NCBI GenBank assembly: GCA_965224065.1
Contig: CBDCYF010000005.1
Span: 2,175,616-2,239,615, forward strand
Source of the DNA: Candidatus Multivoradales bacterium
GTDB taxonomy: Bacteria; Acidobacteriota; Thermoanaerobaculia; Multivoradales; JAHEKO01
Reading direction: 5' to 3'
DNA: 64,000 nt
The notes beneath the pieces are model-generated. The model saw nothing but the letters and a program-made list of their open reading frames with translations, ran no database searches and had not been told where the DNA came from. A program made the position numbers and the translations under genes. Positions 4,469-15,652 of this stretch are shown in pieces; position 1 is the stretch's first letter, and every line of letters starts with the position of its first letter.

Positions 4469-5770
4469 ATGGGGCTCTGCAGCATGATTCGACGATTGGA
4501 GGCAGAAGAGCTACAGGCTTTTGTCGATGCCATTGCGGCCAGCGTCGCCGTTCTGGAGCACGACCCCACCGGGCACCATCTCGTCCGCGTCTGCAACGAT
4601 CGGTTTCGGCAAATGGTCGAGGGTGGAAGTCCTTTGACCCGAACGACCCCCTTTGCGTTGAAAGACCTGCTGCCCGGCTATGCCCGGCGTCCCTTTGCCG
4701 AGGCCATCGACAACTGCTACAACACCACGGAACCGTTGGAATTCGAGCAGGTCTACGACCTGCGCGACGGCACACGCTGGTGGCGCTACACGGCTACGCC
4801 GGTCCTCGAGCCCTCCAACGAAATGTACCGGGTTCTGTTGACGGGTCTCGACATCACGTCAAAGATCGAGCTGGAGCACGAGCTGCGATTCACCAGCTCC
4901 CGTTTCGCCTCAGTGATCGCCGCGGCCTACGACGGTATCGTGACGATTGACCAGCGGGCTCGGATCACGCTGTTCAACCAGGCCGCCGAGCAACTCTTCG
5001 GCTACTCGGAAGAGGAGCTTCTCGGTCAACACCTCAACGTCCTCTTGCCCGAGGACAATCGAGAACACCACGACGCCTACATCGACCAGTTTGGCCGCTC
5101 ACCGGTGCCGTCGCGGCAGATGGACGAGCGCGGGCGGATCTTTGGCCGTCACAAAGACGGAACCGTATTCCCCGTCGAGATCGCGATCTCGAAGATCAAC
5201 GTCGGCGGCTTGATCGAGTTCACGGCGATCATCCGCGACATCAGCGACCGCGTTCGTCTGATGGACATTCTCGAGCAGCAGGCCAAGCTCGACCCGCTGA
5301 CCGGGGTACCCAACCGCCGGGAATTCCGCGAACAGGGCGAGCCGGCGTTCCAGCAGGCTCAGCCCGGCGCGTTCTCACTGCTCATTCTGGATGTGGACCG
5401 TTTCAAGAACATCAACGACACGCACGGGCACGACCGGGGCGACGATGTCTTGCGAGCGCTAGCCGCCACCGCCGCCTCGACCGTCCGCCACCTCGACGTC
5501 TTCGCCCGCTTGGGCGGCGAGGAGTTCGCGGTCTTGATGCCGGACACCGGTGACACGCAGGCCTCCGCTACGGCCGAACGCATCCGGCGGATCTACGACG
5601 AGCAGGCCTTCGAGCATGAGTGGAACGGTGAGCCGATCCCCTTTACCGTCAGTGTCGGGGTGGCGACCAAGACAGAAAGCGACGCCGATTTCGACGCGTT
5701 GCTCAAGCGTGCCGACACGGCGCTCTACCGGGCCAAGGAGTCGGGGAGAAACCGGGTCGAGGTGGACTAG
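4469..5770 (+). CDS. PAS-domain sensor diguanylate cyclase (GGDEF)
   Basis: 433 aa. Two PAS-like segments followed by a GGDEF domain with an intact RLGGEEFAVLMPD active site and an RHLD I-site-like motif 5 aa upstream. Confidence 0.85.
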   Translation: MGLCSMIRRLEAEELQAFVDAIAASVAVLEHDPTGHHLVRVCNDRFRQMVEGGSPLTRTTPFALKDLLPGYARRPFAEAIDNCYNTTEPLEFEQVYDLRDGTRWWRYTATPVLEPSNEMYRVLLTGLDITSKIELEHELRFTSSRFASVIAAAYDGIVTIDQRARITLFNQAAEQLFGYSEEELLGQHLNVLLPEDNREHHDAYIDQFGRSPVPSRQMDERGRIFGRHKDGTVFPVEIAISKINVGGLIEFTAIIRDISDRVRLMDILEQQAKLDPLTGVPNRREFREQGEPAFQQAQPGAFSLLILDVDRFKNINDTHGHDRGDDVLRALAATAASTVRHLDVFARLGGEEFAVLMPDTGDTQASATAERIRRIYDEQAFEHEWNGEPIPFTVSVGVATKTESDADFDALLKRADTALYRAKESGRNRVEVD

Positions 5771-6129
5771 TCGGAGCCGCCGAGGATCTCTCGGATCGAG
5801 GACGCGTCGTAAAAGCCCCGGATCTCCTGGATGGCATCTCCCTCGACACGGACCCAGTCACAGGCTTCGACCACGCCTTTTGGGGTCGTGTTCTCGTACA
5901 GGACCGCCGCCTGATTCCCGCTGGCGATCACATCCTTGACCGAAAGCTCCGACACGCTCTTGCGCGCCATCGGCTCGACCTCGGCGAGGTAGTTGTCGCG
6001 GCCGTCGTATCGCCCCAAGGGACTAACGTGGACAAAGTCGGGGGCCAGCCGCTGCCGAAGCCATTCCATGTCGTACTTGGCCCATGCCTCGATCCAACCT
6101 ACGGCCAACTCTGCGGTGCGTTCACTCAT
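5767..6129 (-). CDS. SnoaL-like/NTF2-fold small protein
   Basis: ORF 5767..6438 trimmed to the internal ATG at 6129-6127 gives a 120-aa protein, MSERTAELAVGWIEAWAKYDMEWLRQRL..., with an NTF2/SnoaL-like pattern. Shares a palindromic CTAG stop (5767-5770) with the convergent GGDEF gene. Confidence 0.5.
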   Translation of the reverse strand: MSERTAELAVGWIEAWAKYDMEWLRQRLAPDFVHVSPLGRYDGRDNYLAEVEPMARKSVSELSVKDVIASGNQAAVLYENTTPKGVVEACDWVRVEGDAIQEIRGFYDASSIREILGGSD

Positions 6130-6167
6130 CGCCGATCTCCTTTCTTGGTTGGTAGCCCGACCCGTGG

Positions 6168-6923
6168 TCAGAGCCGCCGGTAGCGTGCCGGATCGGCGGC
6201 GAGGATCAGCAGATCGCCGCGGCGGCGAACCTGTCCGGTGATCTCGACCGGCTCGGCGACAAAGTCGAGTACCCGGTCGTTGACGGCAGCGCCGTCCTCG
6301 TCGGTGAGCAGAAAATGACGGTAGTCCCCGTCCGCGGTCTCGACCCTCAAGACCGGAGGGATGCCCCCGCTGATACAGCGGGTGGCGCAGGCGCGGTGGG
6401 GCTTGCCGCGGCCGGGCTTCATCACCCCCAGAAAACACTTGCTGTCGACGATCTCGCCGCGCAGGGTCCGGCGGCCGAGATCGACCACGGCCTGGCGGCT
6501 CGCCTGCCTCTGCTCGAGCGGTTCGACGCTGCCCGCGACCATTTCGATCATGTGCTCGCCTTCGCGGTAGATGAGCGAGCCCCGGAGGCGTACCCGCTGC
6601 CCCTCGAGCCCCCCGGTCTCGGGCTCAGCGCCGTGCTTGCCAAAAGCGACGAGCAGGAACCGCGCGGCGGTCGTCTCTCCGAGCTGCACCGGGGCATCGA
6701 GCAGGAGCACCGGGTGCGGCCGCTCGCTCACGACGCCTTCGAAATCGCGAACCACCCCGAACTCGAAGACCCCGGGATCGAAGCGGTCCTGCAAGACGGC
6801 CAGTGCCGCCGCGACGCCCGCTCCGGCCACCAGCAGCAAAACGACGACACGCCGTAGAAAGCCCGCCAGCCCGGCCGGGGCCTGTTTCTGATAGCCGACA
6901 TAGAAGTCGTCGCGGCCGCTCAT
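6168..6923 (-). CDS. hypothetical membrane-anchored protein (one N-terminal TM helix); last gene of the Rieske operon
   Basis: ATG at 6923-6921 overlaps the upstream stop (ATGA). MSGRDDFYVGYQKQAPAGLAGFLRRVVVLLLVAGAGVAAALAVL..., Cys-containing C-terminal region. No family recognised. Confidence 0.45.
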   Translation of the reverse strand: MSGRDDFYVGYQKQAPAGLAGFLRRVVVLLLVAGAGVAAALAVLQDRFDPGVFEFGVVRDFEGVVSERPHPVLLLDAPVQLGETTAARFLLVAFGKHGAEPETGGLEGQRVRLRGSLIYREGEHMIEMVAGSVEPLEQRQASRQAVVDLGRRTLRGEIVDSKCFLGVMKPGRGKPHRACATRCISGGIPPVLRVETADGDYRHFLLTDEDGAAVNDRVLDFVAEPVEITGQVRRRGDLLILAADPARYRRL

Positions 6924-7978
6924 CGGGTGCCTTCCTGAGCCGCGCCGATCGTCGCCGGCTCGACCGGGGTTCCTGCCGGGTTGGGCCGCGGATGGACCAG
7001 CACGCGATCCCCTTCGACTCGCACGCGGAAGGTCGGGACCTTCTCGGTAAACGGAGGCGGTGAAGAGCCGTTCTCCGGCCGGTACTGGAACCCGTGCCAG
7101 GGGCAGGTAATGCATCCGTCGATGATCCTGCCCTCGCCGAGCGGGCCATTCTGATGCTGACAGACATTCGAGACCACCGAGATCTTGCCGTCGTAGCGAA
7201 AGACCGCCACCCGCTCGCCCGCCAGGCAGACGATACGAGCACGCTTCTCGGCGATGTCACCCACCCGGCAGGCTTCGACATAGCCATCCGCGTCTCCAGC
7301 CGCCTGAAGCTCGCGGTCGCCGGCGCGCTCGCGCCAGCCCGCCACCAGATGGAGTCCGAGCACCCAGACCAGACCCAGCCCAAGCAGGCCGGCCAACACC
7401 GGGTGCCGCTCGGATTGCAGTACGCCGAGCGCCACGTGGAGCACGATCAGCCCGTAGGCAACGTAGACCATCATATGGAGCGTCTTCCACACCGGCGCCG
7501 TCAGGTTGGCGAGCCAGAAATCGTGGCTGGTCGCGGCCATCAAGAAGAGGATCGCCAGCGCCGCCAGCCCCAGCGGCTGGAACGGAAACTGCGCCAGATC
7601 CCCCCAGCGACCGTTCGAGGTCAAGACGCTCACCAGCGGGTTGACGTCGCCGAGAGCGTGAAACTGGAAGATCGAAAAACCGCCGTGGACGAGCGCGAGA
7701 AAGAACAGAGTCACGCCCATGTGGCGGCGGTTGTAGAGCAGCGGCAGAAAGCGCGTGTCGAGCCGGCAAAGCGGGCCGATCGAAAGAATGACATGGAGCA
7801 GCAGCAGCGCCGCAGTGCCGAAGGCGCGGATGAGAAGCGTTTCGACGGTGGCGTTGGGACGCGCCAGCGCCCCCAGTCCCACAAACACCACCAGATACAG
7901 GAGCACCCCGGCGAGAAGCGCGCGGTCGTAGATCTTCTTCTGCCGGTTCCAGCCGACAAACCGGTAAGCGTGGCTCAT
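6920..7978 (-). CDS. membrane di-heme-b (ferric-reductase/MsrQ-like) domain fused to a C-terminal Rieske [2Fe-2S] domain
   Basis: 352 aa. N-terminal ~220 aa carry multiple TM helices with conserved His (LLLHVILS, LALVHGGFSIFQFH, ATSHDFW, IVLHVALG), resembling the Ferric_reduct heme-b domain. C-terminal CQHQNGPLGEG...CITCPWHGFQY is a Rieske CxH...CxxH motif. Confidence 0.65.
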   Translation of the reverse strand: MSHAYRFVGWNRQKKIYDRALLAGVLLYLVVFVGLGALARPNATVETLLIRAFGTAALLLLHVILSIGPLCRLDTRFLPLLYNRRHMGVTLFFLALVHGGFSIFQFHALGDVNPLVSVLTSNGRWGDLAQFPFQPLGLAALAILFLMAATSHDFWLANLTAPVWKTLHMMVYVAYGLIVLHVALGVLQSERHPVLAGLLGLGLVWVLGLHLVAGWRERAGDRELQAAGDADGYVEACRVGDIAEKRARIVCLAGERVAVFRYDGKISVVSNVCQHQNGPLGEGRIIDGCITCPWHGFQYRPENGSSPPPFTEKVPTFRVRVEGDRVLVHPRPNPAGTPVEPATIGAAQEGTR

Positions 7979-8112
7979 CGCTGGGCCTCGACTAAGTTCT
8001 CTTCATACGGGCGCTCGGGCCTGGCCGCCAGCGCCGCGAGAAAAAGCACCAGGGCCACCACCGCGATGATCGCCACCAGCCAGAAATGGCGTCGGCGCAG
8101 CGGCCGGATCAC
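7975..8112 (-). CDS. putative small single-TM protein (45 aa, GTG start)
   Basis: GTG at 8112-8110 overlaps the TGA of the upstream ORF (GTGA). VIRPLRRRHFWLVAIIAVVALVLFLAALAARPERPYEENLVEAQR. Stop overlaps the start of the downstream membrane-Rieske gene. Confidence 0.25.
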   Translation of the reverse strand: MIRPLRRRHFWLVAIIAVVALVLFLAALAARPERPYEENLVEAQR

Positions 8113-8402
8113 CGCCGCGTCTCCTTGTGCGACGAAAAGACCGGCCGGCCGGAGCGCGTGAGGTCTCGGTGAGGGTTGCGCTCTTCCGGGGGCGACGCGC
8201 CCCGAATCCACCGCCGCGCCAGCAGCGGCCACAAGGCCGCGGTCGCGGGCAAGATCGCCAGCCGGAACCCCCAGCTACCGCCCACGGCCTGCGGGTCGAT
8301 CCGCTGAGCGCCGCGGATCACAAAGGCAATCCCAAAGAGGAGACCTATGCCCAGGTACACGCCGGTTACGAGTAGCAGCCAACTCGCGATTGTCTCGGTC
8401 AT
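8109..8402 (-). CDS. putative small 2-TM membrane protein
   Basis: MTETIASWLLLVTGVYLGIGLLFGIAFVIRGAQRIDPQAVGGSWGFRLAILPATAALWPLLARRW... The C-terminal tail is low complexity, so the true end or frame is uncertain. Confidence 0.3.
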   Translation of the reverse strand: MTETIASWLLLVTGVYLGIGLLFGIAFVIRGAQRIDPQAVGGSWGFRLAILPATAALWPLLARRWIRGASPPEERNPHRDLTRSGRPVFSSHKETRR

Positions 8403-8432
8403 CTGTTCCGCCGGTTTTGGAGGTTCACGCCT

Positions 8433-10403
8433 TCAGACCAGCTCCGGATCGGCCACGACCTCGACCAGGCTGGGACCGTCGTGCGCCAGTGCCCTGTCTA
8501 GCGCTTCGTCCAGGTCCTCCTTGTCGGTCACCCGGATACCCAGGGCCCCGCACAGCTCCGCGTATTTCGAGAAATCCGGATTGTGAAGCGAGGTCTGCCA
8601 AACCTCCCAGTTGCCCGATCGCTGCTCCTTGGAGATCTTGCCCAGCTCCGAGTTGTTGAGCAGCACGTGGGTGATGTTCATGCCGTACTTGACCGCGGTG
8701 GTGATCTCGCCCAGATACTGGCCAAAGCCGCCGTCGCCGGTCACCGCCACCACCGGGCGGCCCTTGAAGCGCGGATCGTCTTCCTGGGTCGCCGCCCACG
8801 CCCCCATCGCCGCCGGATAGCCAAAGCCGATCGAGCCCAGATACCCCGACATCAAAACGGCCTGCCGGCTGCATTCGAAGTAGCGCCCGAACGAGTAGGT
8901 GTTGTTGCCGACGTCGACCGCGATGACGGCGTCCTCGGGCACCTTGCGGTTCATGGCGGCAAACACCGCCGAGGACGAGACGCCCCGGCCGCGCTCTTCG
9001 GCCTGGCGCCGCTCCTTCTCGTGGCGCCAGATGGCCCACCGCTCGGCGATCTCGGGCCGCTGGTCGACCGTATCGATCCCGTCGCCCAGCTCGTCTCGCA
9101 ACAGCCGCGCGGTCACCCCGATCTCGCCCCACACCGGCACCTTGACGGCGTGGAACTTGCCCAGGATCATCGGGTCGTAGTCGACCTGGACGATCGGACG
9201 CTTGGGGGTGATCCCGGTGTGGTTCGAAAAGCTGGCGCCAAAGACCAGCAGGGCGTCGGACTCGTTCATGAAGTAGCTGGCGATCGGCGTGCCGCTCCGG
9301 CCCAGGACGCCACAGCCCAGCGTGTGGTGGTCCGAAACCAGGCCCTTGCCCTTGAAGGTGGTGAGCACCGGGCTGTTCAAACGCTCGGCCAGCTCGAGGA
9401 TGGCATCCATCTCGAAGCGGGCGCCGTGGCCAACGATGATCACCGGCCGCTTCGATCCGCGGATCACATCGAGTGCCCGGTCCAGGGACTCTCGGGGGGG
9501 CGCAATCTCGCGCGGCGCCACCCGACCCTCAGGGCGGCTCGCTTTGGCATTGGGCGGCGCTTCGAGCGTCTGGACCTCGTCGGGAAAGATGAGATGCGAC
9601 ACGCCCCGGTTGAGGATGGCGCTCTTGGCCGCCAGGTTGACCAGCTCGGCGTGGCGGGAGGTGTGGAGCACCGGCTGGCTCCACTGGGCGACCTTGCCAA
9701 AGGCCGCCGACAGATCGACCTCCTGAAACGCCCCCGGCCCGAGCACCTGGGTATCCACCTGGCCGGTGAGCGCAAGGACCGGCGAACGGTCCACGTTGGC
9801 GTCCCACAGGCCGGTCAGCAGATTGGTCGCGCCCGGCCCGGCGATGGCCAGACAGGCTGCCGGCCGGCCGGTCAGCTTGCCGTAGGCCGAGGCGGCAAAC
9901 GACGCCGCGGCCTCGTGGCGGATGCCGTAGAACGTCAGGTTGCCGGCCTCCTCCTGCCGTCGCAGCGCGTCGGCCAGACCGAGGTTGGAGTGCCCGACCA
10001 TGCCCCAGACATGGCGGATGCCCCAGTTGACCATCGTCTCGGCCATCACGTCGGTCACCGTCGGGACGTGAGTCTCCTCGGGCGCAAAACCGACATAGAC
10101 ACCGTCCTTGCGCTCTTCGACCGGGAACGTCGCCACCCCGTCGTCAAAGCCCGGAGCCTTACCGGTGAGCGGATCGTAGTCCCAACCATGCCAGGGGCAT
10201 CGCAGCAGACCGTTCTCGATCGAGCCCTCTCCCAACGGCCCGCCCTGGTGGGGACAGCGATTGTCGAGCGCGCCGTACTCGCCGTTGTGACGCGTCATAC
10301 AGACCGTGGTGTGCTCGCAGGTCACCGGCTTGACCCGGCCTTCGGCCAGCTCGTCCGGTTCTAAAACCTTCAGCCAGACTCTTTCGCTGGTGTCGCTCGG
10401 CAT
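8433..10403 (-). CDS. Rieske [2Fe-2S] domain fused to a thiamine-diphosphate-dependent enzyme (pyruvate-oxidase/acetolactate-synthase-like)
   Basis: 656 aa. N-terminal CPHQGGPLGEGSI...LLRCPWHGWDY. The remainder has TPP_enzyme N/M/C-like regions including the GDG-X-NN ThDP motif AVTGDGGFGQYLGEITTAVKYGMNITHVLLNNSELG. Confidence 0.75.
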   Translation of the reverse strand: MPSDTSERVWLKVLEPDELAEGRVKPVTCEHTTVCMTRHNGEYGALDNRCPHQGGPLGEGSIENGLLRCPWHGWDYDPLTGKAPGFDDGVATFPVEERKDGVYVGFAPEETHVPTVTDVMAETMVNWGIRHVWGMVGHSNLGLADALRRQEEAGNLTFYGIRHEAAASFAASAYGKLTGRPAACLAIAGPGATNLLTGLWDANVDRSPVLALTGQVDTQVLGPGAFQEVDLSAAFGKVAQWSQPVLHTSRHAELVNLAAKSAILNRGVSHLIFPDEVQTLEAPPNAKASRPEGRVAPREIAPPRESLDRALDVIRGSKRPVIIVGHGARFEMDAILELAERLNSPVLTTFKGKGLVSDHHTLGCGVLGRSGTPIASYFMNESDALLVFGASFSNHTGITPKRPIVQVDYDPMILGKFHAVKVPVWGEIGVTARLLRDELGDGIDTVDQRPEIAERWAIWRHEKERRQAEERGRGVSSSAVFAAMNRKVPEDAVIAVDVGNNTYSFGRYFECSRQAVLMSGYLGSIGFGYPAAMGAWAATQEDDPRFKGRPVVAVTGDGGFGQYLGEITTAVKYGMNITHVLLNNSELGKISKEQRSGNWEVWQTSLHNPDFSKYAELCGALGIRVTDKEDLDEALDRALAHDGPSLVEVVADPELV

Positions 10404-10421
10404 GGATCTCTTCGCCGCCCG

Positions 10422-12041
10422 CTAGAGCGGGACGGCGCCTCCGTAGTGGACGCCGGTGAGGTAGGCAACGTCTCGTTTCCAGGTCGTCAGGTCCTCGATG
10501 CGGAAGTCCGCCAGACGAGAGTGGCCGCAGGCCCGCGCCAGCAGCTTCATCAGCTCGACCGAGGCGCCAAAAAACCGCGCCAACCGCTCGGCCGCCTCGT
10601 CCACCGGCAGGCGTTCGCGCAGTTGCGGTTTCTGCGTCGCGATCCCGACCGGGCAGTTGTTGGTGTGGCACGCCCGCATACCGAGACAGCCGATCGCCTG
10701 GATCGCCGCGTTCGACACCGCGACGCCGTCGGCGCCCAGCGCCAGCGCCTTTGCAAAGTCGGCGGGAGTGCGGAGCCCGCCGGTGATGATCAACGTGACC
10801 TCTCCGCTCTTGCCTCTGAGATCGAGATGCTGCCGCGCCCGCGCCAGCGCCGGCAACGTCGGCACCGAGATGTTGTCGCGAAAGATCAGCGGGGCCGCCC
10901 CCGTGCCCCCGCCACGGCCGTCCAGGATGACGTAGTCCACGCCGATCCGGAGCGCCGCGTCGATGTCGTCCTCGATGTGCTGGGCCGAAAGCTTGAACCC
11001 GATCGGAATGCCGCCCGTGGACTCGCGCACCTCGTCGGCAAAGTGACGAAAGGGCTCCACGTCGTCCCAATCGGGGAAGCGCGACGGCGAGACCGCCTGC
11101 TGCCCCTCCTCGAGACTCCGGACCTCCGCGATCTTGCCCACGACCTTCTCGCCCGGCAGGTGTCCGCCGGTTCCGGTCTTCGCCCCCTGGCCGCCCTTGA
11201 AGTGAAAGGCCTGCACCCCCTGGAGCTTGTCCATCGAGAAACCGAAGCGCGCCGAGGCGAGCTCGTAGAAATAGCGGCTGTTCGCTCCCTGCTCCTCGGG
11301 CAGCATTCCCCCTTCGCCCGAACAGATCCCGGTGCCGGCGAGCTCCGCCCCTTTTGCGAGAGCCACCTTGGCCTCGAAGGACAGCGCGCCAAAGCTCATG
11401 TCCGAGACAAAGAGCGGAATGTCGAGCACCAGCGGCTTGGCGGCGTTTGGGCCGACCACCAGCTCGGTGCCCACCGGTGTGTCGTCGAGCTGGGGCACGC
11501 GCGCGAGCTGGGCGGTGACGAACTGGAGATCGTCCCAGACCGGGAGCTGGCTTCTCGGCACGCCCATTGCCGCCACCGGGCCGTGGTGCCCGACCTTTTC
11601 CAGCCCGTTGGCCGCCAGCTCGCGGATGAACTTGACGTATGGCTCGGCCGGGCTGCCTTTCGAGTGGTCCTGAAAGACTCCTTGGTAGGCGTCGCGCGCA
11701 TAGGGCTGCGGGTTATCACGCTCCCAGGCGGCAACCTCGTCCCGGTCGACCCAGACGCCGCCGTCTTCGACCCAGGAAGAGAACTTGTGGAGCCTCTCCT
11801 CCGGGGCGTAGGAGCTCACCCCGCTTCGAAACTGATAGTCCCAGTTGTGGACTCCGCAGATGATGTCGTCACCACGCACAAAGCCGTCGGACATCAAGGC
11901 ACCACGGTGCTGGCAGCGACCGTAGAGCACCGAGACTTCCTCGTCGTACCGAACCACCACCAAGTCGACGTTGGTAACCAGCGCGTGGGCCGGCTGGCGG
12001 TCGGCCAGCTCTACCCACTCGGCGATCTTCACCTTGTCCAT
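10422..12041 (-). CDS. Rieske [2Fe-2S] domain fused to a glutamate-synthase-like FMN-binding (GltS domain-2) protein
   Basis: 539 aa. N-terminal CQHRGALMSDG...CGVHNWDY. C-terminal ~400 aa match the glutamate-synthase FMN-domain family (GEGGMLPEE, DGRGGGTGAAP, ITGGLRTPADFAKALALGADGV, CHTNNCPVGIATQ). Confidence 0.75.
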   Translation of the reverse strand: MDKVKIAEWVELADRQPAHALVTNVDLVVVRYDEEVSVLYGRCQHRGALMSDGFVRGDDIICGVHNWDYQFRSGVSSYAPEERLHKFSSWVEDGGVWVDRDEVAAWERDNPQPYARDAYQGVFQDHSKGSPAEPYVKFIRELAANGLEKVGHHGPVAAMGVPRSQLPVWDDLQFVTAQLARVPQLDDTPVGTELVVGPNAAKPLVLDIPLFVSDMSFGALSFEAKVALAKGAELAGTGICSGEGGMLPEEQGANSRYFYELASARFGFSMDKLQGVQAFHFKGGQGAKTGTGGHLPGEKVVGKIAEVRSLEEGQQAVSPSRFPDWDDVEPFRHFADEVRESTGGIPIGFKLSAQHIEDDIDAALRIGVDYVILDGRGGGTGAAPLIFRDNISVPTLPALARARQHLDLRGKSGEVTLIITGGLRTPADFAKALALGADGVAVSNAAIQAIGCLGMRACHTNNCPVGIATQKPQLRERLPVDEAAERLARFFGASVELMKLLARACGHSRLADFRIEDLTTWKRDVAYLTGVHYGGAVPL

Positions 12042-12126
12042 GAGTCCTCCGTAATCCAGCCGCTGCGCCGGCGCAGTCTACAAGGCCAAGTCAGCGCTTG
12101 GCCCGTACTACACCGGTTAGGATGGG

Positions 12127-12537
12127 GTGGCGATGAAAGGACTGAGCTGGATCCTCCGAGGCATTGCTGCTGTCATCCTCTTGCAGACGCTGTTCTTCAA
12201 GTTCACCGCGGCGCCCGAGTCGGTCTTTATCTTCGAGACTCTCGGAATGGAGCCCTGGGGCCGGATCGGCTCCGGTGTGGCCGAGCTCGTCGCCGCGGTC
12301 CTCCTCCTCGTGCCGGCAACCACCCTATACGGCGCGATCCTGGCGTTGGGATTGATGGCAGGCGCCATTGTGAGCCATCTGACCCGTCTGGGTATCGAGG
12401 TTCAGGGTGACGGTGGCCTGTTGTTCGGTCTGGCACTGGTCGTTACCGCATGCTGTCTCAGCCTGGTGGCGCTCGACCGGCGCCGTCTCGGTGAGCTTTG
12501 CGCGCGTATCCTCGGGCAGGGCCGGAAGAAAGGGTAA
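12127..12537 (+). CDS. DoxX-family membrane protein
   Basis: 136 aa, four predicted TM helices. Divergent from the Rieske operon. Confidence 0.6.
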   Translation: MAMKGLSWILRGIAAVILLQTLFFKFTAAPESVFIFETLGMEPWGRIGSGVAELVAAVLLLVPATTLYGAILALGLMAGAIVSHLTRLGIEVQGDGGLLFGLALVVTACCLSLVALDRRRLGELCARILGQGRKKG

Positions 12538-14033
12538 GCGCCAAACCCACCGTGGCCGAACCTCGAGAAGACGACCGACCGAAAAGCTCCGACGGCTGGA
12601 GCGGCGCAGTCGGAGGCCGGTCCGAGCGGACGCTCGAACGGCTCTTCGAAGTCGCGTCGGCACAGATCGCGACCGAGCATGAGCTCACCAGCCGCGACCG
12701 CGACCCCGAGGAGCTCTATGACGAGCTGGGGATCGCGCTCTCTGAAGAAGGCGTCTCCTTCGACGAGGTCGTCGACCGGTTGCGGGCCATCCTGGCGGCG
12801 ACTCCGTCCGCGGCGGGTCGCCGCTTCCTCAACCAGCTTTTTGGCGGCCGCGATGAGATCGCCAGCCTGGCCGAGATGCTCACCCCGCTTGTCAACACTT
12901 CGATGTATACCTACAAGGTGGCCGGCCCGCAGGTGCTCCTCGAGCGGGAAGTGCTGGCCCGCATGGGCGCAAAGATCGGTCTGGCCGACGGCGAGGGAAT
13001 CCTGTGTCCCGGCGGCTCGCTGGCTACGCTGACGGCGATGCTGATCGCGCGCAACGAAGCTCTCGACGGGGTGCGGGACCAGGGGCTTGGAGCCATGGCC
13101 GGGCGGGGCTTGACCCTCTACACATCGGTCGACGGCCACTATTCGGTACGCAAGAACGCCGGCATTCTGGGTCTGGGAAGAAGCTCGGTACGCGAGATCG
13201 CGACCGACGACGGCGGCCGTATGGACGTCGAGGCCTTGCGCCAGACTATCCGCTCGGATCGGGCCGCCGGCCACCGGCCCTTGCTGGTCAACGCCACCGC
13301 CGGCTCGACGGTGCTGGGTGCCTTTGACCCGATCCACGAGATCGGCCTCATCGCCCAGGACGAAGGAATGTGGCTGCACGTCGACGGGGCCCTGGGCGGC
13401 TCGGTGGCGCTCTGTTCGCGGCACCGAGACCTGATCGACGGCTCCGAGCTGGCCGACTCCTTTGTCTGGAATGCCCACAAGATGATGGGTGTGCCGCTGC
13501 CGTGCTCGGCGTTGCTCTTGGCCCGGCGTGGCCAGCTTCAGCGCCAGCTTGCCGAGCCGGCCGACTATCTCTTTCAAAGCCACGGCGACGAGCTCAACCC
13601 GGGCACGCGTTCGATCCAGTGCGGGCGCCGCAACGATGCGCTCAAGCTGTGGGCGGCCTGGAAGCTCCACGGAGACCGTGGCTACGACCGACGGCTGAGT
13701 CGCCTGTTCGACCTGGCCCAATACACGGCCTCGCGGGTGGAGGCTGACCCGGCTTTCGAGCTGCTCTTGCCACCGGAATCGATCAACGTGTGTTTCCGGG
13801 TGAAGGGAAGGTCGAGCGCTGACATCTGCGGGCAGCTCGACCGCGAGGGCCGTCTGTTGATCGGACACGGCAAGGCGCAAGGGCGACAGGCGATCCGGCT
13901 GGTCTGTGTGAACCTCGATCTCGAGGAACGAGACATCGACGACGCCTTGGGTGCGATCCGACAAGCCGCCGCGTCTCTGCCGGCCGTCGAAGACCCGACG
14001 CCCGACAATCCCATCCCATCGGCCGCTCGATGA
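12498..14033 (+). CDS. PLP-dependent group II amino-acid decarboxylase (GadB/CSAD/DABA-decarboxylase-like)
   Basis: 511-aa ORF. An alternative in-frame GTG at 12552 lies just after the DoxX stop. PLP-lysine motif NAHKMMGVPLPCS, plus HVDGALGGS. Confidence 0.8.
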   Translation: MRAYPRAGPEERVSAKPTVAEPREDDRPKSSDGWSGAVGGRSERTLERLFEVASAQIATEHELTSRDRDPEELYDELGIALSEEGVSFDEVVDRLRAILAATPSAAGRRFLNQLFGGRDEIASLAEMLTPLVNTSMYTYKVAGPQVLLEREVLARMGAKIGLADGEGILCPGGSLATLTAMLIARNEALDGVRDQGLGAMAGRGLTLYTSVDGHYSVRKNAGILGLGRSSVREIATDDGGRMDVEALRQTIRSDRAAGHRPLLVNATAGSTVLGAFDPIHEIGLIAQDEGMWLHVDGALGGSVALCSRHRDLIDGSELADSFVWNAHKMMGVPLPCSALLLARRGQLQRQLAEPADYLFQSHGDELNPGTRSIQCGRRNDALKLWAAWKLHGDRGYDRRLSRLFDLAQYTASRVEADPAFELLLPPESINVCFRVKGRSSADICGQLDREGRLLIGHGKAQGRQAIRLVCVNLDLEERDIDDALGAIRQAAASLPAVEDPTPDNPIPSAAR

Positions 14034-14812
14034 AGACGCTCAGCCAGGTCTTCCCGCTTCACCGCGAACAGCTTCCCACCACAACCCTGGGGGAGAGCCA
14101 CTACGAGATCCGATTCGCCCAGACTTCGGAAGAGCTCGATGCCATCCAGAAGCTGCGTTTCGAAGTGTTCAACCTCGAGATGGGTGAAGGCCTCGAAGAG
14201 TCATTCGAGAGCGGCCGCGACGCCGACGCCTTCGACCCGGTATGCCACCACTTGATGGTCACCGACCGCAACACCGACTCGATCGTCGGCTGTTACCGGA
14301 TGCAGACCGCCGCGATGGCAAGCGCCAATCGTGGTTTCTATTCGTCGAGCCTCTTCGATCTCTCAACCCTCCCCGAGACCGCAACCGAAAAGTCCATCGA
14401 AGTGGGCCGCGCGTGCGTCGCCAAGAGCCATCGCAGCTCGCTGGTGCTCTTTTTGCTCTGGAAGGGCCTGGCTCTCTATGTCGCCCACAACCAGGTGCGG
14501 TATCTCTTTGGCTGCTGCTCGCTGACCAGCCAGGATCCGGCGGAGGGCAGCGCGGTCTTGCGCTATCTCGAAGAGGGCGGGCGTATGCACCCGGAGTGGT
14601 CGATCCAACCGGTCCCCGACTGTGTGTGCCCCATCGACCGCACCGTCGAGGCGGCCACCGGGGTGCCGACGCTCTTCCGGACATATCTTCGATATGGCGC
14701 CAAGGTCTGCGGTCCCCCGGCGATCGATCGCGAGTTCAAGACCATCGATTACCTGGTGGTGCTCGATATCGACGGGCTGTCTCCGCGAACCCACCGGATG
14801 TTCTTCGATTAA
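14030..14812 (+). CDS. olsB: OlsB-like N-acyltransferase (Acetyltransf_5, hemolysin-like; lyso-ornithine-lipid synthase or N-acyl amino acid synthase family)
   Basis: 260 aa. ATGA overlap with the decarboxylase stop. Pattern LRFEVFNLEMGEG...HLMVTDRNTDSIVGCYRM...LVLFLLWKGLALYV is typical of OlsB-like/N-acyl amino acid synthases. Confidence 0.65.
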   Translation: MKTLSQVFPLHREQLPTTTLGESHYEIRFAQTSEELDAIQKLRFEVFNLEMGEGLEESFESGRDADAFDPVCHHLMVTDRNTDSIVGCYRMQTAAMASANRGFYSSSLFDLSTLPETATEKSIEVGRACVAKSHRSSLVLFLLWKGLALYVAHNQVRYLFGCCSLTSQDPAEGSAVLRYLEEGGRMHPEWSIQPVPDCVCPIDRTVEAATGVPTLFRTYLRYGAKVCGPPAIDREFKTIDYLVVLDIDGLSPRTHRMFFD

Positions 14813-14844
14813 CCCGGGGCCTCACGGGTGCCGAGAGAGCTGGA

Positions 14845-15630
14845 GTGAAAACCCTCCGCGCCGGTTGGCGTCTTCTGCTCGTCGCCAAGACGACGGCTTT
14901 TTTCTACGCCCTGGTGCTTGCCGGGACGGCGGTAGTCGCTTTCGCGCCGCGCCAGCGCATCCGTTGGCGCGATTTCTGTTTCCGCAACTGGTCGCGGTGG
15001 GTGCTTGCGATTCTCCACGTCACCGTCGAGCACCAGGGTACGCCACCTCGGCCACCCTTCTTTCTGGTCGCGAATCATCTGAGCTACATCGACATCCTGG
15101 TGCTGGCCAGCCACGTCGACGCGGTGTTCATCGCCAAATCCGAAGTTCGGTCCTGGCCGATCATCGGGCTTCTCTGCCGCTCGGTCGGCACGCTCTTTGT
15201 CGACCGCGGGTCACGGCGCGACATCCCGCGGGTGATCGCCGAGATCGATCGTGTGCTGGGCCACGGCCAGGGAATCGTCCTCTTCCCCGAGGGCACCAGC
15301 ACCCCGGGTTTCGAGGTCGGCCGCTTCCGGCCCTCGCTCCTCGAGGTGGCCGCGCGCGCCGGGATCCCGGTCTCCCACGCCAGCCTGAGCTACGACACCG
15401 GCGACGAATCAAAGCCGGCCCACCTCACCGTTTGCTGGTGGGGAGACATGGAATTCCCCGGCCACTTCTGGCGTCTGCTGGCACTCCCGAGGTTCACCGC
15501 AAAACTGTCGTTTGGACGCGACACGATTCAGGACGACGACCGCAAGCGTCTCGCCGATCGCCTGCAAGCCGCGGTCGAGCGGCAATTCGTTCCCGTCGTG
15601 TCCGAGGGCGCACCCACGGAGGCGGCGTGA
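14845..15630 (+). CDS. olsA: PlsC-family lyso-lipid O-acyltransferase (OlsA-like)
   Basis: GTG at 14845, 33 nt after the olsB stop. The long ORF 14242..15630 is an out-of-frame read-through artefact. HxxxxD motif in FLVANHLSYIDILVL and the FPEGTSTPG motif. Confidence 0.7.
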   Translation: MKTLRAGWRLLLVAKTTAFFYALVLAGTAVVAFAPRQRIRWRDFCFRNWSRWVLAILHVTVEHQGTPPRPPFFLVANHLSYIDILVLASHVDAVFIAKSEVRSWPIIGLLCRSVGTLFVDRGSRRDIPRVIAEIDRVLGHGQGIVLFPEGTSTPGFEVGRFRPSLLEVAARAGIPVSHASLSYDTGDESKPAHLTVCWWGDMEFPGHFWRLLALPRFTAKLSFGRDTIQDDDRKRLADRLQAAVERQFVPVVSEGAPTEAA

Positions 15631-15652
15631 GGCGGTCGGGCGAGCCACAAGC

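What the first reader, a model, noticed from the sequence alone, without database searches (positions are those of the whole stretch)
6168..12041. Operon encoding three different Rieske [2Fe-2S] fusion proteins: candidate undescribed electron-transfer module
Six co-directional, tightly packed genes lie on the minus strand. Gaps are at most 31 nt, and three junctions overlap as ATGA or GTGA. From upstream to downstream the operon encodes:
- a Rieske + glutamate-synthase-like FMN-domain protein (10422..12041);
- a Rieske + ThDP-dependent enzyme of the pyruvate-oxidase/ALS fold (8433..10403);
- two tiny TM proteins;
- a membrane ferric-reductase/MsrQ-like di-heme-b domain + Rieske (6920..7978);
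- a TM-anchored hypothetical protein (6168..6923).

All three Rieske modules carry the NirD/oxygenase-ferredoxin-type CxH...CxxH motif (CPHQGGPLGEG..CPWHGW). The arrangement suggests a dedicated chain: ThDP-enzyme oxidative decarboxylation, then Rieske, then the membrane heme-b/Rieske anchor to quinone, and/or Rieske to the GltS-like FMN reductase. I do not recall a described system with this composition. Each fusion is unusual on its own.
Basis: partly seen in the sequence, partly recalled or inferred. Interest (0 to 1): 0.85.

Follow-up and report, generated by a model that had tools for sequence, protein, structure and literature searches.

The report
Three Rieske-tagged redox proteins, lipid cluster
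Three different enzymes that each carry the same small iron-sulfur "plug" domain (a pyruvate-oxidase-like enzyme, a glutamate-synthase-like enzyme and a membrane cytochrome) really are encoded side by side, and they belong to a larger, widespread and uncharacterised gene cluster that also holds genes resembling those that make phosphorus-free amino-lipids.

Summary
Six tightly packed minus-strand genes encode:
- A: Rieske + GltS-type FMN/3Fe-4S.
- B: Rieske + PoxB-like ThDP enzyme.
- C and D: two small TM proteins.
- E: di-haem ferric-reductase domain + Rieske.
- F: TM-anchored protein with no known family.

All Rieske ligands are conserved.

- The operon is half of a larger conserved cluster (6168-18226). 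The divergent plus-strand operon (DoxX, PLP decarboxylase, OlsB-like, OlsA-like, hydrolase-DedA/VTT-ATP-grasp) lies in one co-directional operon with A-F in several relatives.
- The cluster is modular. C-(D)-E-F is almost invariant, and E-F fusions exist. A-B is a separate pair, adjacent in about half of 80 species. The two modules are joined in different orders in several phyla.
- B is 70-87% identical across many phyla (at least 588 species).

No paper describing the system was found.

Best reading: ferredoxin-type Rieske domains wire a 2-oxoacid-oxidising ThDP enzyme to a GltS-like reductase and to a transmembrane haem conduit ending at periplasmic F. This works within an amino-lipid / envelope pathway. 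Substrates and electron direction are inferred, not shown.

The parts
10422..12041 (-). A: N-terminal Rieske [2Fe-2S] ferredoxin-type domain (res. 4-82) plus glutamate-synthase-type FMN TIM-barrel with a 3Fe-4S motif C-x5-C-x4-C (CLGMRACHTNNC). No amidotransferase or GXGXG domain.
   Evidence: - Pfam Glu_synthase 300 bits, Rieske 45 bits.
- Best PDB matches are GltS large chains, aligned over the FMN domain only.
- The Rieske ligands C43/H45/C62/H65 and the three 3Fe-4S Cys are at least 95% conserved across the window protein and 34 homologues.
- NCBIfam GltB scores 138 bits against a cut-off of 1047.
8433..10403 (-). B: N-terminal Rieske ferredoxin-type domain (res. 10-104) plus a three-domain ThDP enzyme of the pyruvate oxidase / PoxB branch. 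It lacks PoxB's C-terminal membrane-binding peptide.
   Evidence: - Pfam TPP_enzyme_N/M/C plus Rieske.
- The best NCBIfam hit is pyruvate oxidase, 383 bits against a cut-off of 742.
- The best PDB hit is E. coli PoxB 3EYA, E 7e-69. B residues 115-653 align to PoxB 4-529, and B ends at residue 656.
- 295 of 656 positions are at least 95% conserved in 78 species from many phyla.
8109..8402 (-). C: 97-aa protein with two hydrophobic segments (likely two TM helices) and no known family. It is a constant upstream partner of E.
   Evidence: - No Pfam or NCBIfam hit.
- A homologue lies upstream of E in 59 of 59 metagenome loci with enough flank.
7975..8112 (-). D: 45-aa single-TM protein (VIRPLRRRHFWLVAII...). 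It starts at GTG 8112, which overlaps C's stop (GTGA), and its stop overlaps E's ATG (ATGA). It is truncated relative to the 59-169-aa relatives.
   Evidence: - Sequence reading, with AAGGAG 7 nt upstream of the GTG.
- The N-terminal TM region is conserved in L084 (MIRPLRRRHRWMVALV...).
- Small ORFs are called between C and E in L081, L082, L084, L165, L166 and L168.
6920..7978 (-). E: six-TM ferric-reductase-domain cytochrome b plus a C-terminal cytoplasmic Rieske ferredoxin-type domain. The four canonical haem His are H86/H98 in TM3 and H168/H181 in TM5.
   Evidence: - Pfam Ferric_reduct 47 bits (cut-off 28) and Rieske 57 bits.
- Invariant in 29 homologues: H62, H86, H98, H107, H152, H168, H181, H210 and the Rieske ligands C273/H275/C292/H295.
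- The AF2 model has six long helices followed by a beta domain.
- The Rieske part superposes on oxygenase ferredoxins with TM 0.82-0.87.
6168..6923 (-). F: N-in TM anchor (res. 19-44) plus a predicted periplasmic beta-barrel (OB-like) domain. It carries the invariant motif GEIVDSKCxxGxMxPxxxKxHxxCAxxCxxGGxP. No known family. It is an obligate partner of E and is sometimes fused to it.
   Evidence: - No Pfam or NCBIfam hit.
- About 2600 clusters at 50% identity, nearly all stand-alone or fused behind E.
- E-F fusions of about 600 aa: P0128, P0160, P0207.
- F lies downstream of E in 51 of 52 loci.
- AF2 model pLDDT 89.
- Invariant residues are listed.
12042..12126 (.). 85-nt divergent intergenic region between A and the DoxX-like gene. 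It presumably holds the promoters of both operons.
   Evidence: - Sequence reading.
- No sigma-70-like consensus was found here.
- No Rfam match.
12127..12537 (+). H: DoxX-like small membrane protein, the first gene of the divergent operon.
   Evidence: - Pfam DoxX_2 1.2e-7.
- Homologues lie near C-E-F in 8 of 14 wide-flank metagenome loci and next to A in L041.
12498..14033 (+). I: group-II PLP-dependent amino-acid decarboxylase. The true start is probably near 12537.
   Evidence: - Pfam Pyridoxal_deC 7.7e-74.
- The nearest NCBIfam models are DABA decarboxylase and PanP, both far below cut-off.
- The homologue follows B directly in L084, L165 and L166.
- Homologues lie near B in L003, L006 and L035.
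14030..14812 (+). J: OlsB-like N-acyltransferase (Acetyltransf_5).
   Evidence: - Pfam 5.8e-31.
- NCBIfam OlsB 162 bits against a cut-off of 320.
- The homologue follows F directly in L081, L082/83, L168, L137 and L133.
14845..15630 (+). K: OlsA-like (PlsC-type) O-acyltransferase. Start at GTG 14845.
   Evidence: - Pfam Acyltransferase 8e-23.
- NCBIfam OlsA 128 bits against a cut-off of 300.
- Start codon read.
- The homologue sits immediately upstream of, and co-directional with, A-X6-B in L079 and next to A in L003 and L123.
15653..18226 (+). L: alpha/beta-hydrolase plus DedA/VTT membrane domain plus a weak C-terminal ATP-grasp (RimK-like) hit. Start probably GTG 15653 (857 aa).
   Evidence: - Pfam Abhydrolase_1 and VTT_dom, with a weak RimK hit.
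- NCBIfam UptA-like for the VTT part.
- Start codon read.
- Homologues of 857-877 aa in L081, L084, L165, L166 and L168.
- Present in 12 of 14 wide-flank E loci.
5767..6090 (-). G: SnoaL_2-like small protein, 77 nt downstream of F. Probably co-transcribed here but not a conserved member of the cluster.
   Evidence: - Pfam SnoaL_2 1e-11.
- A homologue lies near B only in L026.
- Marine relatives have MsrB (SelR) in this position instead.

Best explanation
The six genes are the redox half of a conserved, modular gene cluster (window 6168-18226). In it, three ferredoxin-type Rieske [2Fe-2S] domains appear to act as built-in electron connectors.

Shown:
- A, B and E each carry an intact low-potential-type Rieske module.
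- All three modules are predicted to lie in the cytoplasm.
- B is a PoxB-like ThDP enzyme that lacks PoxB's membrane-binding tail.
- A is a GltS-type FMN/3Fe-4S barrel without the glutaminase part.
- E is a di-haem ferric-reductase-domain cytochrome b whose constant partners are C and F.
- F is a TM-anchored protein, predicted to be periplasmic, with an invariant Cys3/His/Met motif.
- The genes recur together with OlsB/OlsA-like acyltransferases, a PLP decarboxylase, DoxX and a DedA/VTT fusion protein.

Inferred mechanism:
1. B oxidatively decarboxylates a 2-oxo acid. Instead of docking on the membrane and reducing quinone as PoxB does, it hands the electrons one at a time to its own Rieske cluster.
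2. That cluster passes electrons to the Rieske domains of two acceptors.
3. The first acceptor is A. There the path Rieske to 3Fe-4S to FMN follows the normal, reductive direction of glutamate synthases. It would reduce an imino or 2-oxo acid, possibly to an amino acid that the adjacent PLP decarboxylase converts into the amine head group acylated by the OlsB/OlsA-like enzymes.
4. The second acceptor is E, which carries electrons through two b haems across the membrane to the periplasmic F domain. This resembles how MsrQ serves MsrP, for an envelope or lipid-directed reduction that is still unknown.

The substrates of A, B and F are not known.
For: Domain identity and cofactor motifs:
- Pfam, NCBIfam and PDB comparisons.
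- Conservation of Rieske ligands, haem His and 3Fe-4S Cys.

Rieske type:
- Closest to the shuttle ferredoxins of oxygenase systems, which transfer electrons from one Rieske cluster to another.

B compared with PoxB:
- The alignment stops at PoxB residue 529-533 and B ends there, so the lipid-binding C-terminal peptide is missing. A Rieske domain is added at the N terminus instead.

Topology:
- E has positively charged N-terminal and even-numbered loops and six TM helices.
- F has a basic N terminus followed by one TM helix.
- In E-F fusions F's TM helix follows E's Rieske domain. This is consistent with a cytoplasmic Rieske domain and a periplasmic F domain.

Functional linkage:
- A lies next to B in about 37-39 of 80 species.
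- C and F lie with E in 59/59 and 51/52 loci.
- All of A, B, PLP decarboxylase, OlsB-like, OlsA-like, hydrolase-VTT, C, D, E and F sit in one co-directional operon in L084, L165 and L166. They appear in permuted order in L168.
- Other arrangements occur in L004, L015, L041, L079, L081, L097, L123 and L146.
- B is 70-87% identical across Acidobacteriota, Gemmatimonadota, Nitrospirales, Myxococcota, Planctomycetota, Gammaproteobacteria, Trueperaceae and others. This indicates strong constraint and lateral spread.
Against: - No experiment or structure of a complex links the three Rieske domains. The electron path is inference from domain logic and synteny.
- In half of the B loci no A lies within 8 kb. 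In most E loci (many from soil or peat) no A or B is nearby. E-F therefore clearly works without A/B next to it, and may use other donors.
- FAD binding by B was not tested. The residue equivalent to PoxB Phe465, which lies between ThDP and FAD (position and role recalled, not checked), is Lys in B by my own residue count along the alignment (LGKISKEQ; conservation). The chemistry may therefore differ from PoxB.
- F's Cys3-His motif could be a structural zinc site rather than a redox site. Its fold gives no functional clue.
- The link to lipid synthesis rests on OlsB/OlsA-like hits that fall below the NCBIfam cut-offs.
Confidence: 0.45

Rival explanations
1. A and B form a closed redox pair whose only job is head-group biosynthesis.

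- B oxidises pyruvate or another 2-oxo acid and feeds electrons through the two Rieske domains to A.
- A reductively aminates a 2-oxo acid to an unusual amino acid.
- The PLP decarboxylase turns this into an amine, and the OlsB/OlsA-like enzymes acylate it.
- E-F-C-D is a separate membrane system that merely shares the lipid cluster and does not exchange electrons with A or B.
For: - A-B adjacency is far more frequent (about half of 80 loci) than A/B-E adjacency.
- The gene order A-B-decarboxylase-OlsB-OlsA is tightly packed. In L165 B ends at 3969 and the decarboxylase starts at 3969.
- In known glutamate synthases the 3Fe-4S cluster is the entry point for electrons in the reductive direction (established GltS knowledge). 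A keeps the Lys and Arg that I map to the GltS 2-oxoglutarate site. Their role and numbering are recalled, not checked (alignment; conservation).
Against: - A occurs directly next to C-D-E-F without B in L146. It also lies in E-F operons or beside them in L081, L090 and L123.
- B lies directly upstream of C-E in the window, L041 and L097.
- The decarboxylase is present in only a minority of A-B loci.
- This model does not explain why E carries the same type of Rieske module.
Confidence: 0.25
2. A catabolic, energy-conserving route.

- A runs in reverse as an amino-acid (glutamate-like) dehydrogenase and produces a 2-oxo acid.
- B oxidatively decarboxylates that 2-oxo acid.
- All four electrons pass through the Rieske domains to E, and from there to quinone or a periplasmic acceptor of the respiratory chain.
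- The lipid genes are bystanders.
For: - The product of A would be the substrate class of B, which fits their adjacency.
- PoxB is a respiratory-chain-linked dehydrogenase (established knowledge; homology).
- A TRAP-type transporter (TAtT, DctP) precedes A in L081.
- A carbonic anhydrase lies next to B in Nitrospirales loci.
Against: - No other catabolic gene is conserved around B. Apart from the TRAP genes in L081 and a Na+/H+ exchanger in the Thiodiazotropha/Beggiatoa lineages, no transporter is either.
- The conserved neighbours are acyltransferases, DedA/VTT, DoxX, DinB-like and TANGO2-like proteins, which is not a catabolic set.
- The reverse GltS reaction is not known to be physiological (established knowledge).
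- Ferric-reductase-domain proteins are not known as respiratory entry points.
Confidence: 0.12
3. The three Rieske fusions are functionally unrelated, and their adjacency in this window is an accident of operon shuffling among mobile, frequently transferred genes.
For: - The modules are separable and usually apart.
- The high identity of B across phyla suggests frequent lateral transfer, which can create chance juxtapositions.
Against: - At least a dozen loci from different lineages place A and/or B with C-E-F in at least six different gene orders, several as single operons.
- Among the top 120 hits of each search, B and E/F homologues have identical longest-contig lengths in seven cases besides the window. 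This suggests they share a contig. Four were confirmed by look-up: L084, L165, L166 and L168 for B with E/F, and L167 for B with E.
Confidence: 0.08

Closest known systems
E. coli PoxB (pyruvate:ubiquinone oxidoreductase) and Lactobacillus/Aerococcus pyruvate oxidases
   Same: - Same three-domain ThDP fold.
- Best PDB (3EYA, E 7e-69) and NCBIfam matches.
- The cofactor-activating Glu and the GDGG...NN Mg-ThDP motif are present.
   Different: - An N-terminal Rieske [2Fe-2S] domain is added.
- PoxB's C-terminal lipid-activated membrane peptide is absent.
- Scores about half the family cut-off (383 against 742).
- The Phe465 equivalent is Lys (my residue count on the alignment).
- FAD dependence and substrate are unknown.
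Glutamate synthase alpha-subunit FMN domain (NADPH-GltS, Fd-GltS) and stand-alone GltB-like proteins
   Same: - FMN TIM barrel (Pfam 300 bits).
- 3Fe-4S motif C-x5-C-x4-C.
- The QGAK...R substrate-site residues are retained.
   Different: - No glutamine amidotransferase, central or GXGXG domains. The protein is 539 aa against about 1500 aa.
- A Rieske domain takes the place of ferredoxin or the beta subunit as the likely electron entry.
- The Gln after the GxGG loop is His (GGHLPG).
- 138 bits against a cut-off of 1047.
MsrQ-MsrP, bacterial NOX and other ferric-reductase-domain (FRD) proteins
   Same: - Six-TM FRD with bis-His haem sites in TM3 and TM5.
- The known role of the family is to carry electrons from the cytoplasmic side to a periplasmic or extracellular acceptor.
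- An FRD form with a Rieske domain was catalogued as model M4 in PMC3591440.
   Different: - The cytoplasmic module is a Rieske ferredoxin rather than FAD/NADPH-binding domains (NOX) or a separate Fre/quinol donor (MsrQ).
- The periplasmic partner is F, an OB-like protein of no known family, rather than the molybdoenzyme MsrP.
- The MsrQ model scores 39 bits against a cut-off of 130.
Rieske-type ferredoxins of multicomponent oxygenases (BphA3/BphF, T4moC, CarAc, NDO ferredoxin)
   Same: - Closest sequences and structures to the Rieske modules of B and E.
- They shuttle single electrons, often to another Rieske cluster.
   Different: - Here the ferredoxin is covalently fused to three different non-oxygenase partners.
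- No oxygenase catalytic (mononuclear iron) domain is present in the cluster.
Pyruvate:ferredoxin oxidoreductase (PFOR)
   Same: By inference only: a ThDP-bound hydroxyethyl intermediate oxidised in one-electron steps by an iron-sulfur cluster in the same polypeptide.
   Different: - Unrelated domain organisation.
- [4Fe-4S] clusters and CoA dependence in PFOR, against the POX/ALS fold with a [2Fe-2S] Rieske cluster here.
OlsB/OlsA ornithine-lipid pathway (for the neighbouring genes)
   Same: Paired N-acyltransferase (Acetyltransf_5) and PlsC-type O-acyltransferase. OlsB and OlsA are the best NCBIfam models.
   Different: - Both score about half the cut-offs.
- They are accompanied by a PLP decarboxylase, DoxX, DedA/VTT-hydrolase, DinB-like and TANGO2-like genes and the redox proteins. 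Four literature searches combining lipid-gene, DoxX/TANGO2 and redox-domain terms found no such report.

Membership tests
Rieske [2Fe-2S] domain, ferredoxin (low-potential) type | CxH...CxxH ligand set within a PF00355 match | tested here: met
   - Pfam hits in A, B and E.
- Ligands are invariant in E and at least 95% conserved in A and B.
Rieske [2Fe-2S] domain, ferredoxin (low-potential) type | No disulfide-forming extra Cys in the two boxes (bc1/b6f type has CTHLGC / CPCHGS). Closest relatives are oxygenase ferredoxins. | tested here: met
   - The sequence has CPHQGG/CPWHGW (B), CQHQNG/CPWHGF (E) and CQHRGA/CGVHNW (A).
- Best PDB hits are T4moC, BphA3 and the NDO ferredoxin.
Rieske [2Fe-2S] domain, ferredoxin (low-potential) type | A cluster is actually assembled, with a measured redox potential | not testable with these tools
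   Needs EPR or redox titration of expressed protein.
PoxB / pyruvate oxidase subfamily of ThDP enzymes | PYR, middle and PP domains, with the catalytic Glu and the GDG...NN Mg-ThDP motif | tested here: met
   - TPP_enzyme_N/M/C hits.
- IRHEAAASFAA and VTGDGGF...LLNNSELG align to PoxB and are conserved.
PoxB / pyruvate oxidase subfamily of ThDP enzymes | Score above the curated equivalog cut-off | tested here: not met
   - Pyruvate oxidase PRK08611: 383 bits against 742.
- PoxB PRK09124: 297 bits against 792.
PoxB / pyruvate oxidase subfamily of ThDP enzymes | C-terminal lipid-activated membrane-binding peptide (specific to PoxB) | tested here: not met
   The alignment ends at PoxB residue 529 of 572, and B terminates three residues after the aligned region.
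PoxB / pyruvate oxidase subfamily of ThDP enzymes | FAD bound in the middle domain as electron acceptor; aromatic residue (PoxB F465) between ThDP and FAD | tested here: inconclusive
   - The F465 position is Lys in B (LGKISKEQ), by my residue count on the alignment. The motif is conserved. The role of F465 is recalled, not checked.
- FAD-contact residues were not evaluated.
Glutamate synthase (GltS) large subunit | FMN-binding domain PF01645 with 3Fe-4S Cys motif | tested here: met
   - Pfam 300 bits.
- CLGMRACHTNNC aligns to the GltS cluster motif and is conserved.
Glutamate synthase (GltS) large subunit | N-terminal glutamine amidotransferase, central domain and C-terminal GXGXG beta-helix | tested here: not met
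   The protein is 539 aa and only the FMN domain matches. No such genes are conserved nearby.
Ferric reductase domain (FRD) superfamily: MsrQ / NOX / STEAP | PF01794 match with paired haem-ligating His in TM3 and TM5 | tested here: met
   - 47 bits against a cut-off of 28.
- H86/H98 and H168/H181 are invariant.
- The model has six TM helices.
Ferric reductase domain (FRD) superfamily: MsrQ / NOX / STEAP | MsrQ proper: equivalog score and an adjacent msrP (molybdopterin) gene | tested here: not met
   - MsrQ model scores 39 bits against 130.
- The downstream partner is F, which has no Pfam family.
Ferric reductase domain (FRD) superfamily: MsrQ / NOX / STEAP | NOX/FRE proper: C-terminal FAD- and NAD(P)H-binding dehydrogenase domain | tested here: not met
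   The C-terminal domain is a Rieske domain.
OlsB/OlsA ornithine-lipid synthases (neighbouring genes J, K) | Equivalog-level match to OlsB and OlsA | tested here: not met
   OlsB scores 162 bits against 320, and OlsA 128 bits against 300. The Pfam domains are present.

The most novel reading that the evidence does not exclude
This is a widespread, undescribed pathway, especially common in marine bacteria.

- A POX-fold ThDP enzyme performs PFOR-like one-electron oxidation directly onto a fused Rieske cluster.
- This powers a minimal, Rieske-fed glutamate-synthase-like reductive aminase that makes a non-standard amino acid.
- The amino acid is decarboxylated and acylated into a new phosphorus-free amino-lipid, possibly with a sulfonated or diamine head group.
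- The same Rieske 'plug' couples the pathway to a new transmembrane complex (C-D-E-F), a Rieske-fed counterpart of MsrQ or NOX whose periplasmic Cys3/His/Met protein F acts on the envelope or on the lipid.
Probability: 0.2. Interest if true: 0.85.

Novelty: new variant of a known kind. Interest (0 to 1): 0.68.

Why it matters
- B, E and F each form very large families that are highly conserved across phyla and carry only generic names in public databases. B has at least 588 species in GTDB representatives. B and E each filled the 8000-candidate limit of the protein search. F has about 4300 clusters at 90% identity and about 2600 at 50%.
- If the wiring proposed here is right, fused Rieske ferredoxins would be a general way of plugging soluble dehydrogenases or reductases into a membrane haem conduit.
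- It would also give a new solution to how a PoxB-type enzyme disposes of its electrons.
- It would provide the first handle on the function of the FRD-Rieske/F complex.
- The association with OlsB/OlsA-like, DedA/VTT, DoxX, DinB-like and TANGO2-like genes links it to membrane-lipid remodelling or envelope redox homeostasis. These are important traits in phosphorus-poor oceans and soils.
- A cultured carrier of C-E-F exists (Acidobacteria bacterium Mor1, CP011806.1), so part of this is directly testable.

Tried and rejected
- Exact-sequence look-ups of the window's own E and B found no recorded gene, so the source genome's annotation could not be used. The cluster-member look-up gave no names or accessions.
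- The listed top 50 Foldseek matches of the E model were all to its Rieske part. None of them confirmed the TM fold beyond Pfam.
- The profile search with F found no new domain architectures other than E-F fusions.
- A Rfam scan of 5000-19000 found nothing, including no TPP riboswitch. The promoter/terminator scan was uninformative.
- Seven literature searches found no paper on any of the fusions as a system. The only mention is the 2013 FRD survey.
- Clustering of all neighbours of B found no further conserved partner apart from A and X6. Na+/H+ exchanger and carbonic anhydrase neighbours are lineage-specific.
- My simple codon-usage gene caller worked poorly on soil loci, so its calls were not used as evidence, except as the ORF coordinates for the Pfam scan of L137.
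- Considered and dropped:
  - A Tat-exported Fe-S protein for F: the RR pair before its TM helix is not conserved.
  - NirD-like cluster-less Rieske domains: all ligands are conserved.
  - A siderophore-reductase reading: no TonB-dependent receptor or transporter appeared among the conserved neighbour families.
  - NrsF/ECF control: seen only in Mor1.

Full report
**1. The observation**

The six minus-strand ORFs are present as described.

| Gene | Coordinates | Pfam result |
|---|---|---|
| A | 10422-12041 | Rieske + Glu_synthase |
| B | 8433-10403 | Rieske + TPP_enzyme_N/M/C |
| C, D | 8109-8402, 7975-8112 | no family |
| E | 6920-7978 | Ferric_reduct + Rieske |
| F | 6168-6923 | no family |

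- The junctions are an 18-nt gap (A-B), a 30-nt gap (B-C) and the overlaps GTGA (C/D), ATGA (D/E) and ATGA (E/F). Shine-Dalgarno-like sequences lie before A and D.
- D is best read as a 45-aa single-TM protein starting at GTG 8112.
- The Rieske ligands CxH...CxxH are present in all three proteins and are conserved in their homologues.
- No other Rieske domain is detectable in the 64-kb window.

**2. The individual proteins**

*B*
- B is closest to E. coli PoxB (3EYA, E 7e-69) and to pyruvate oxidases. It scores only half the curated cut-offs.
- It ends where PoxB's catalytic core ends, so it lacks the C-terminal membrane-binding peptide.
- By my residue count on the alignment, it has Lys where PoxB has Phe465. 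The role of Phe465 is recalled, not checked.

*A*
- A contains only the FMN barrel of glutamate synthase. The 3Fe-4S motif C-x5-C-x4-C is conserved, as are the Lys and Arg that I map to the 2-oxoglutarate site.
- It has no amidotransferase or GXGXG domains.

*E*
- E has six predicted TM helices.
- The four canonical haem histidines (H86/H98, H168/H181) are invariant. So are four further His on the cytoplasmic or loop side.
- The charge distribution places both termini, and hence the Rieske domain, in the cytoplasm.

*Rieske modules*
- The modules of B and E are most similar to the soluble Rieske ferredoxins of oxygenase systems: T4moC, BphA3, CarAc and the NDO ferredoxin.
- They are 38% identical to each other.

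*F*
- The model is confident (pLDDT 89). It shows an N-terminal TM helix followed by OB-like beta-barrels.
- F carries the invariant motif GEIVDSKCxxGxMxPxxxKxHxxCAxxCxxGGxP.

**3. Distribution**

- A scan of one genome per species found B homologues in at least 588 species. The best 80 are 70-82% identical although they come from many phyla: Acidobacteriota, Gemmatimonadota, Nitrospirales, Nitrospinaceae, Myxococcota, Planctomycetota, Thiodiazotropha/Beggiatoa, Trueperaceae, Gaiellaceae, Rhodothermales and Spirochaetales. Judging by isolate and host names, many are marine MAGs.
- Across 78 of these species, 295 of 656 positions are at least 95% conserved.
- B, E and F all belong to very large families that carry only generic names.
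- E and F also occur in many soil and peat metagenomes.

**4. Synteny**

*Around B (80 loci)*
- A is adjacent in about 37-39 loci.
- A further conserved gene of about 300 aa, X6, has no Pfam family and is absent from this window. It is adjacent in about 23-29 loci.
- No other neighbour is conserved beyond single lineages.

*Around E (80 metagenome loci)*
- C lies upstream in 59/59 loci and F downstream in 51/52 loci with enough flank.
- Of the 14 loci with wide flanks, 12 have the VTT protein, 8 an OlsB-like gene and 8 a DoxX gene. Only 1 has A or B.
- DinB-like genes recur in 21 loci, TANGO2-like in 18 and MsrB in 6.
- E-F fusion proteins of about 600 aa exist.

*Joint occurrences*
- The two modules are repeatedly joined, in different arrangements.
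- L165, L166 and L084 carry A-B-PLP decarboxylase-OlsB-OlsA-hydrolase/VTT-(GDSL)-C-D-E-F-MsrB as one co-directional operon.
- L168 carries C-D-E-F-OlsB-OlsA-hydrolase/VTT-SDR-x-A-B.
- L081 carries C-D-E-F-OlsB-OlsA-DinB-VTT-TAtT-DctP-A.
- L041 has the window's order A-B-C-(D)-E-F, and L097 has B-C-E.
- L146 has A-C-D-E-F without B.
- L079, L004 and L123 have divergent versions.

*In the window*
- The lipid-type genes sit on the plus strand, diverging from A: DoxX-like 12127-12537, PLP decarboxylase about 12537-14033, OlsB-like 14030-14812, OlsA-like 14845-15630 and hydrolase-VTT-ATP-grasp 15653-18226.
- Beyond 18226 the genes are unrelated.
- The feature is therefore a cluster of about 12 kb (6168-18226). 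The reported operon is the redox half of it.

**5. Mechanism**

*Shown*
- Cofactor-binding motifs, predicted topology and conserved gene linkage.

*Inferred*
1. B oxidatively decarboxylates a 2-oxo acid. It has exchanged PoxB's membrane anchor for a Rieske module and releases electrons through that cluster.
2. A receives electrons through Rieske to 3Fe-4S to FMN, the normal direction in glutamate synthases. It reduces an imino or 2-oxo acid.
3. E receives electrons on its cytoplasmic Rieske domain and passes them through two b haems to the periplasmic F domain. This resembles how MsrQ serves MsrP, or how NOX reduces an external acceptor.
4. The recurrent operon context suggests that A's product may feed head-group synthesis of an amino-lipid, and that E-F acts on the envelope. 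That context is the PLP decarboxylase directly after B, the OlsB/OlsA-like genes and the DedA/VTT-hydrolase-ATP-grasp protein, together with DoxX, DinB-like, TANGO2-like and MsrB genes.

*Confidence*
- About 0.45 that the three Rieske domains form one electron-exchange network with B as donor.
- Much lower for any specific substrate.

*Rivals*

| Rival | Confidence |
|---|---|
| Closed B-to-A biosynthetic pair, with E-F independent | 0.25 |
| Catabolic amino acid to 2-oxo acid to acid route feeding the respiratory chain | 0.12 |
| Coincidental juxtaposition | 0.08 |

**6. Comparison with what is known**

- The parts resemble PoxB/POX, the GltS FMN domain, MsrQ/NOX-type FRD proteins and oxygenase Rieske ferredoxins. 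Each fails at least one defining feature of the characterised family (see the membership table).
- An FRD form with a Rieske domain was listed in a 2013 survey of the FRD superfamily, without a function (PMC3591440).
- Seven full-text searches found no paper that treats Rieske-ThDP proteins, Rieske-GltS proteins or this cluster.
- I rate it a new variant of known kinds of redox enzymes, assembled into an undescribed system.

**7. Verdict**

- The finding is real, conserved and uncharacterised.
It missed the lipid half, the modularity and the periplasmic partner F.
- Interest is 0.68. This rests on the very high conservation across phyla, three unusual fusions sharing one connector domain, and clear experiments that could assign function to several large families of unknown function.

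Noticed in passing
window 12127-18226 (+): A divergent operon lies next to the finding: DoxX-like, group-II PLP decarboxylase, OlsB-like, OlsA-like and an alpha/beta-hydrolase-DedA/VTT-ATP-grasp fusion. In relatives it lies in the same operon as the three Rieske genes, so it belongs to the same cluster.
   Followed up: yes
L021:7037-7912 (also L005, L011, L012, L015, L020, L042-L044, L052, L058, L079 and others): A conserved soluble protein of about 290-300 aa (X6) has no Pfam or NCBIfam family. It sits next to B, often between A and B, in about 23-29 of 80 species. It is absent from this window.
   Followed up: partly
window 7975-8112; L084:9495-10004: The small protein D is only 45 aa here, a TM helix plus a short tail. 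Relatives have 59-169 aa, with an extra region after the conserved N-terminal TM segment (IRPLRRRH.W). In the longer forms (L084, 169 aa) this region is Ala/Gly/Pro-rich. The window's copy looks truncated.
   Followed up: partly
P0128, P0160, P0207 (about 600 aa): Natural E-F fusion proteins exist: FRD, then Rieske, then F's TM helix and F domain. They support both the E-F partnership and the predicted topology.
   Followed up: yes
L165:12112-12660, L166:21762-21983, L084:11884-12456: In the closest marine relatives a SelR/MsrB methionine-sulfoxide reductase gene directly follows F. In the window a SnoaL_2-like gene (5767-6090) occupies that position.
   Followed up: partly
L169 (Acidobacteria bacterium Mor1, CP011806.1, 4542601-4563338): A cultured strain carries C-E-F preceded by an NrsF-type anti-sigma-factor gene, with no lipid genes or A/B within 10 kb. 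It is a possible experimental model and hints at stress regulation. NrsF was not seen in any other locus.
   Followed up: partly
window 8433-10403 (B), residues about 585-593: The residue aligned with PoxB Phe465, which I recall as lying between ThDP and FAD, is Lys by my residue count. It sits in the highly conserved motif LGKISKEQ. This hints that electron exit from ThDP differs from PoxB/POX.
   Followed up: no
E (window 6920-7978): residues H62, H107, H152, H210: Four invariant histidines occur in the TM domain in addition to the four canonical haem ligands. Three lie near the cytoplasmic face (my placement from the TM helix order). They may form an extra cofactor, metal or quinone site.
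   Followed up: no
L084:190-1169 and L167:8290-9963: The A homologue is split into fragments in these long-read-derived contigs. This is probably due to frameshift errors in the assemblies rather than real pseudogenes.
   Followed up: partly
L011, L015, L021, L027, L068 (Nitrospirales); L017, L024, L044-L049, L057, L059, L070 (Thiodiazotropha/Beggiatoa): Neighbours of B are lineage-specific. Nitrospirales have an alpha-type carbonic anhydrase directly downstream. The sulfur-oxidising gammaproteobacteria have a Na+/H+ exchanger.
   Followed up: partly
window 18223-20106 and 20054-22030 (-): Two adjacent paralogous DUF3857 / transglutaminase-like proteins converge on the end of the cluster. They appear unrelated to it.
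   Followed up: no
window 4469-5770 (+) and 1999-4218 (+): A PAS-GGDEF diguanylate cyclase and a DUF5916 protein lie beyond the downstream end of the operon. They were not among the conserved neighbours in related loci: the cyclase gave only weak, partial hits in two B loci, and the DUF5916 gene was not searched.
   Followed up: no
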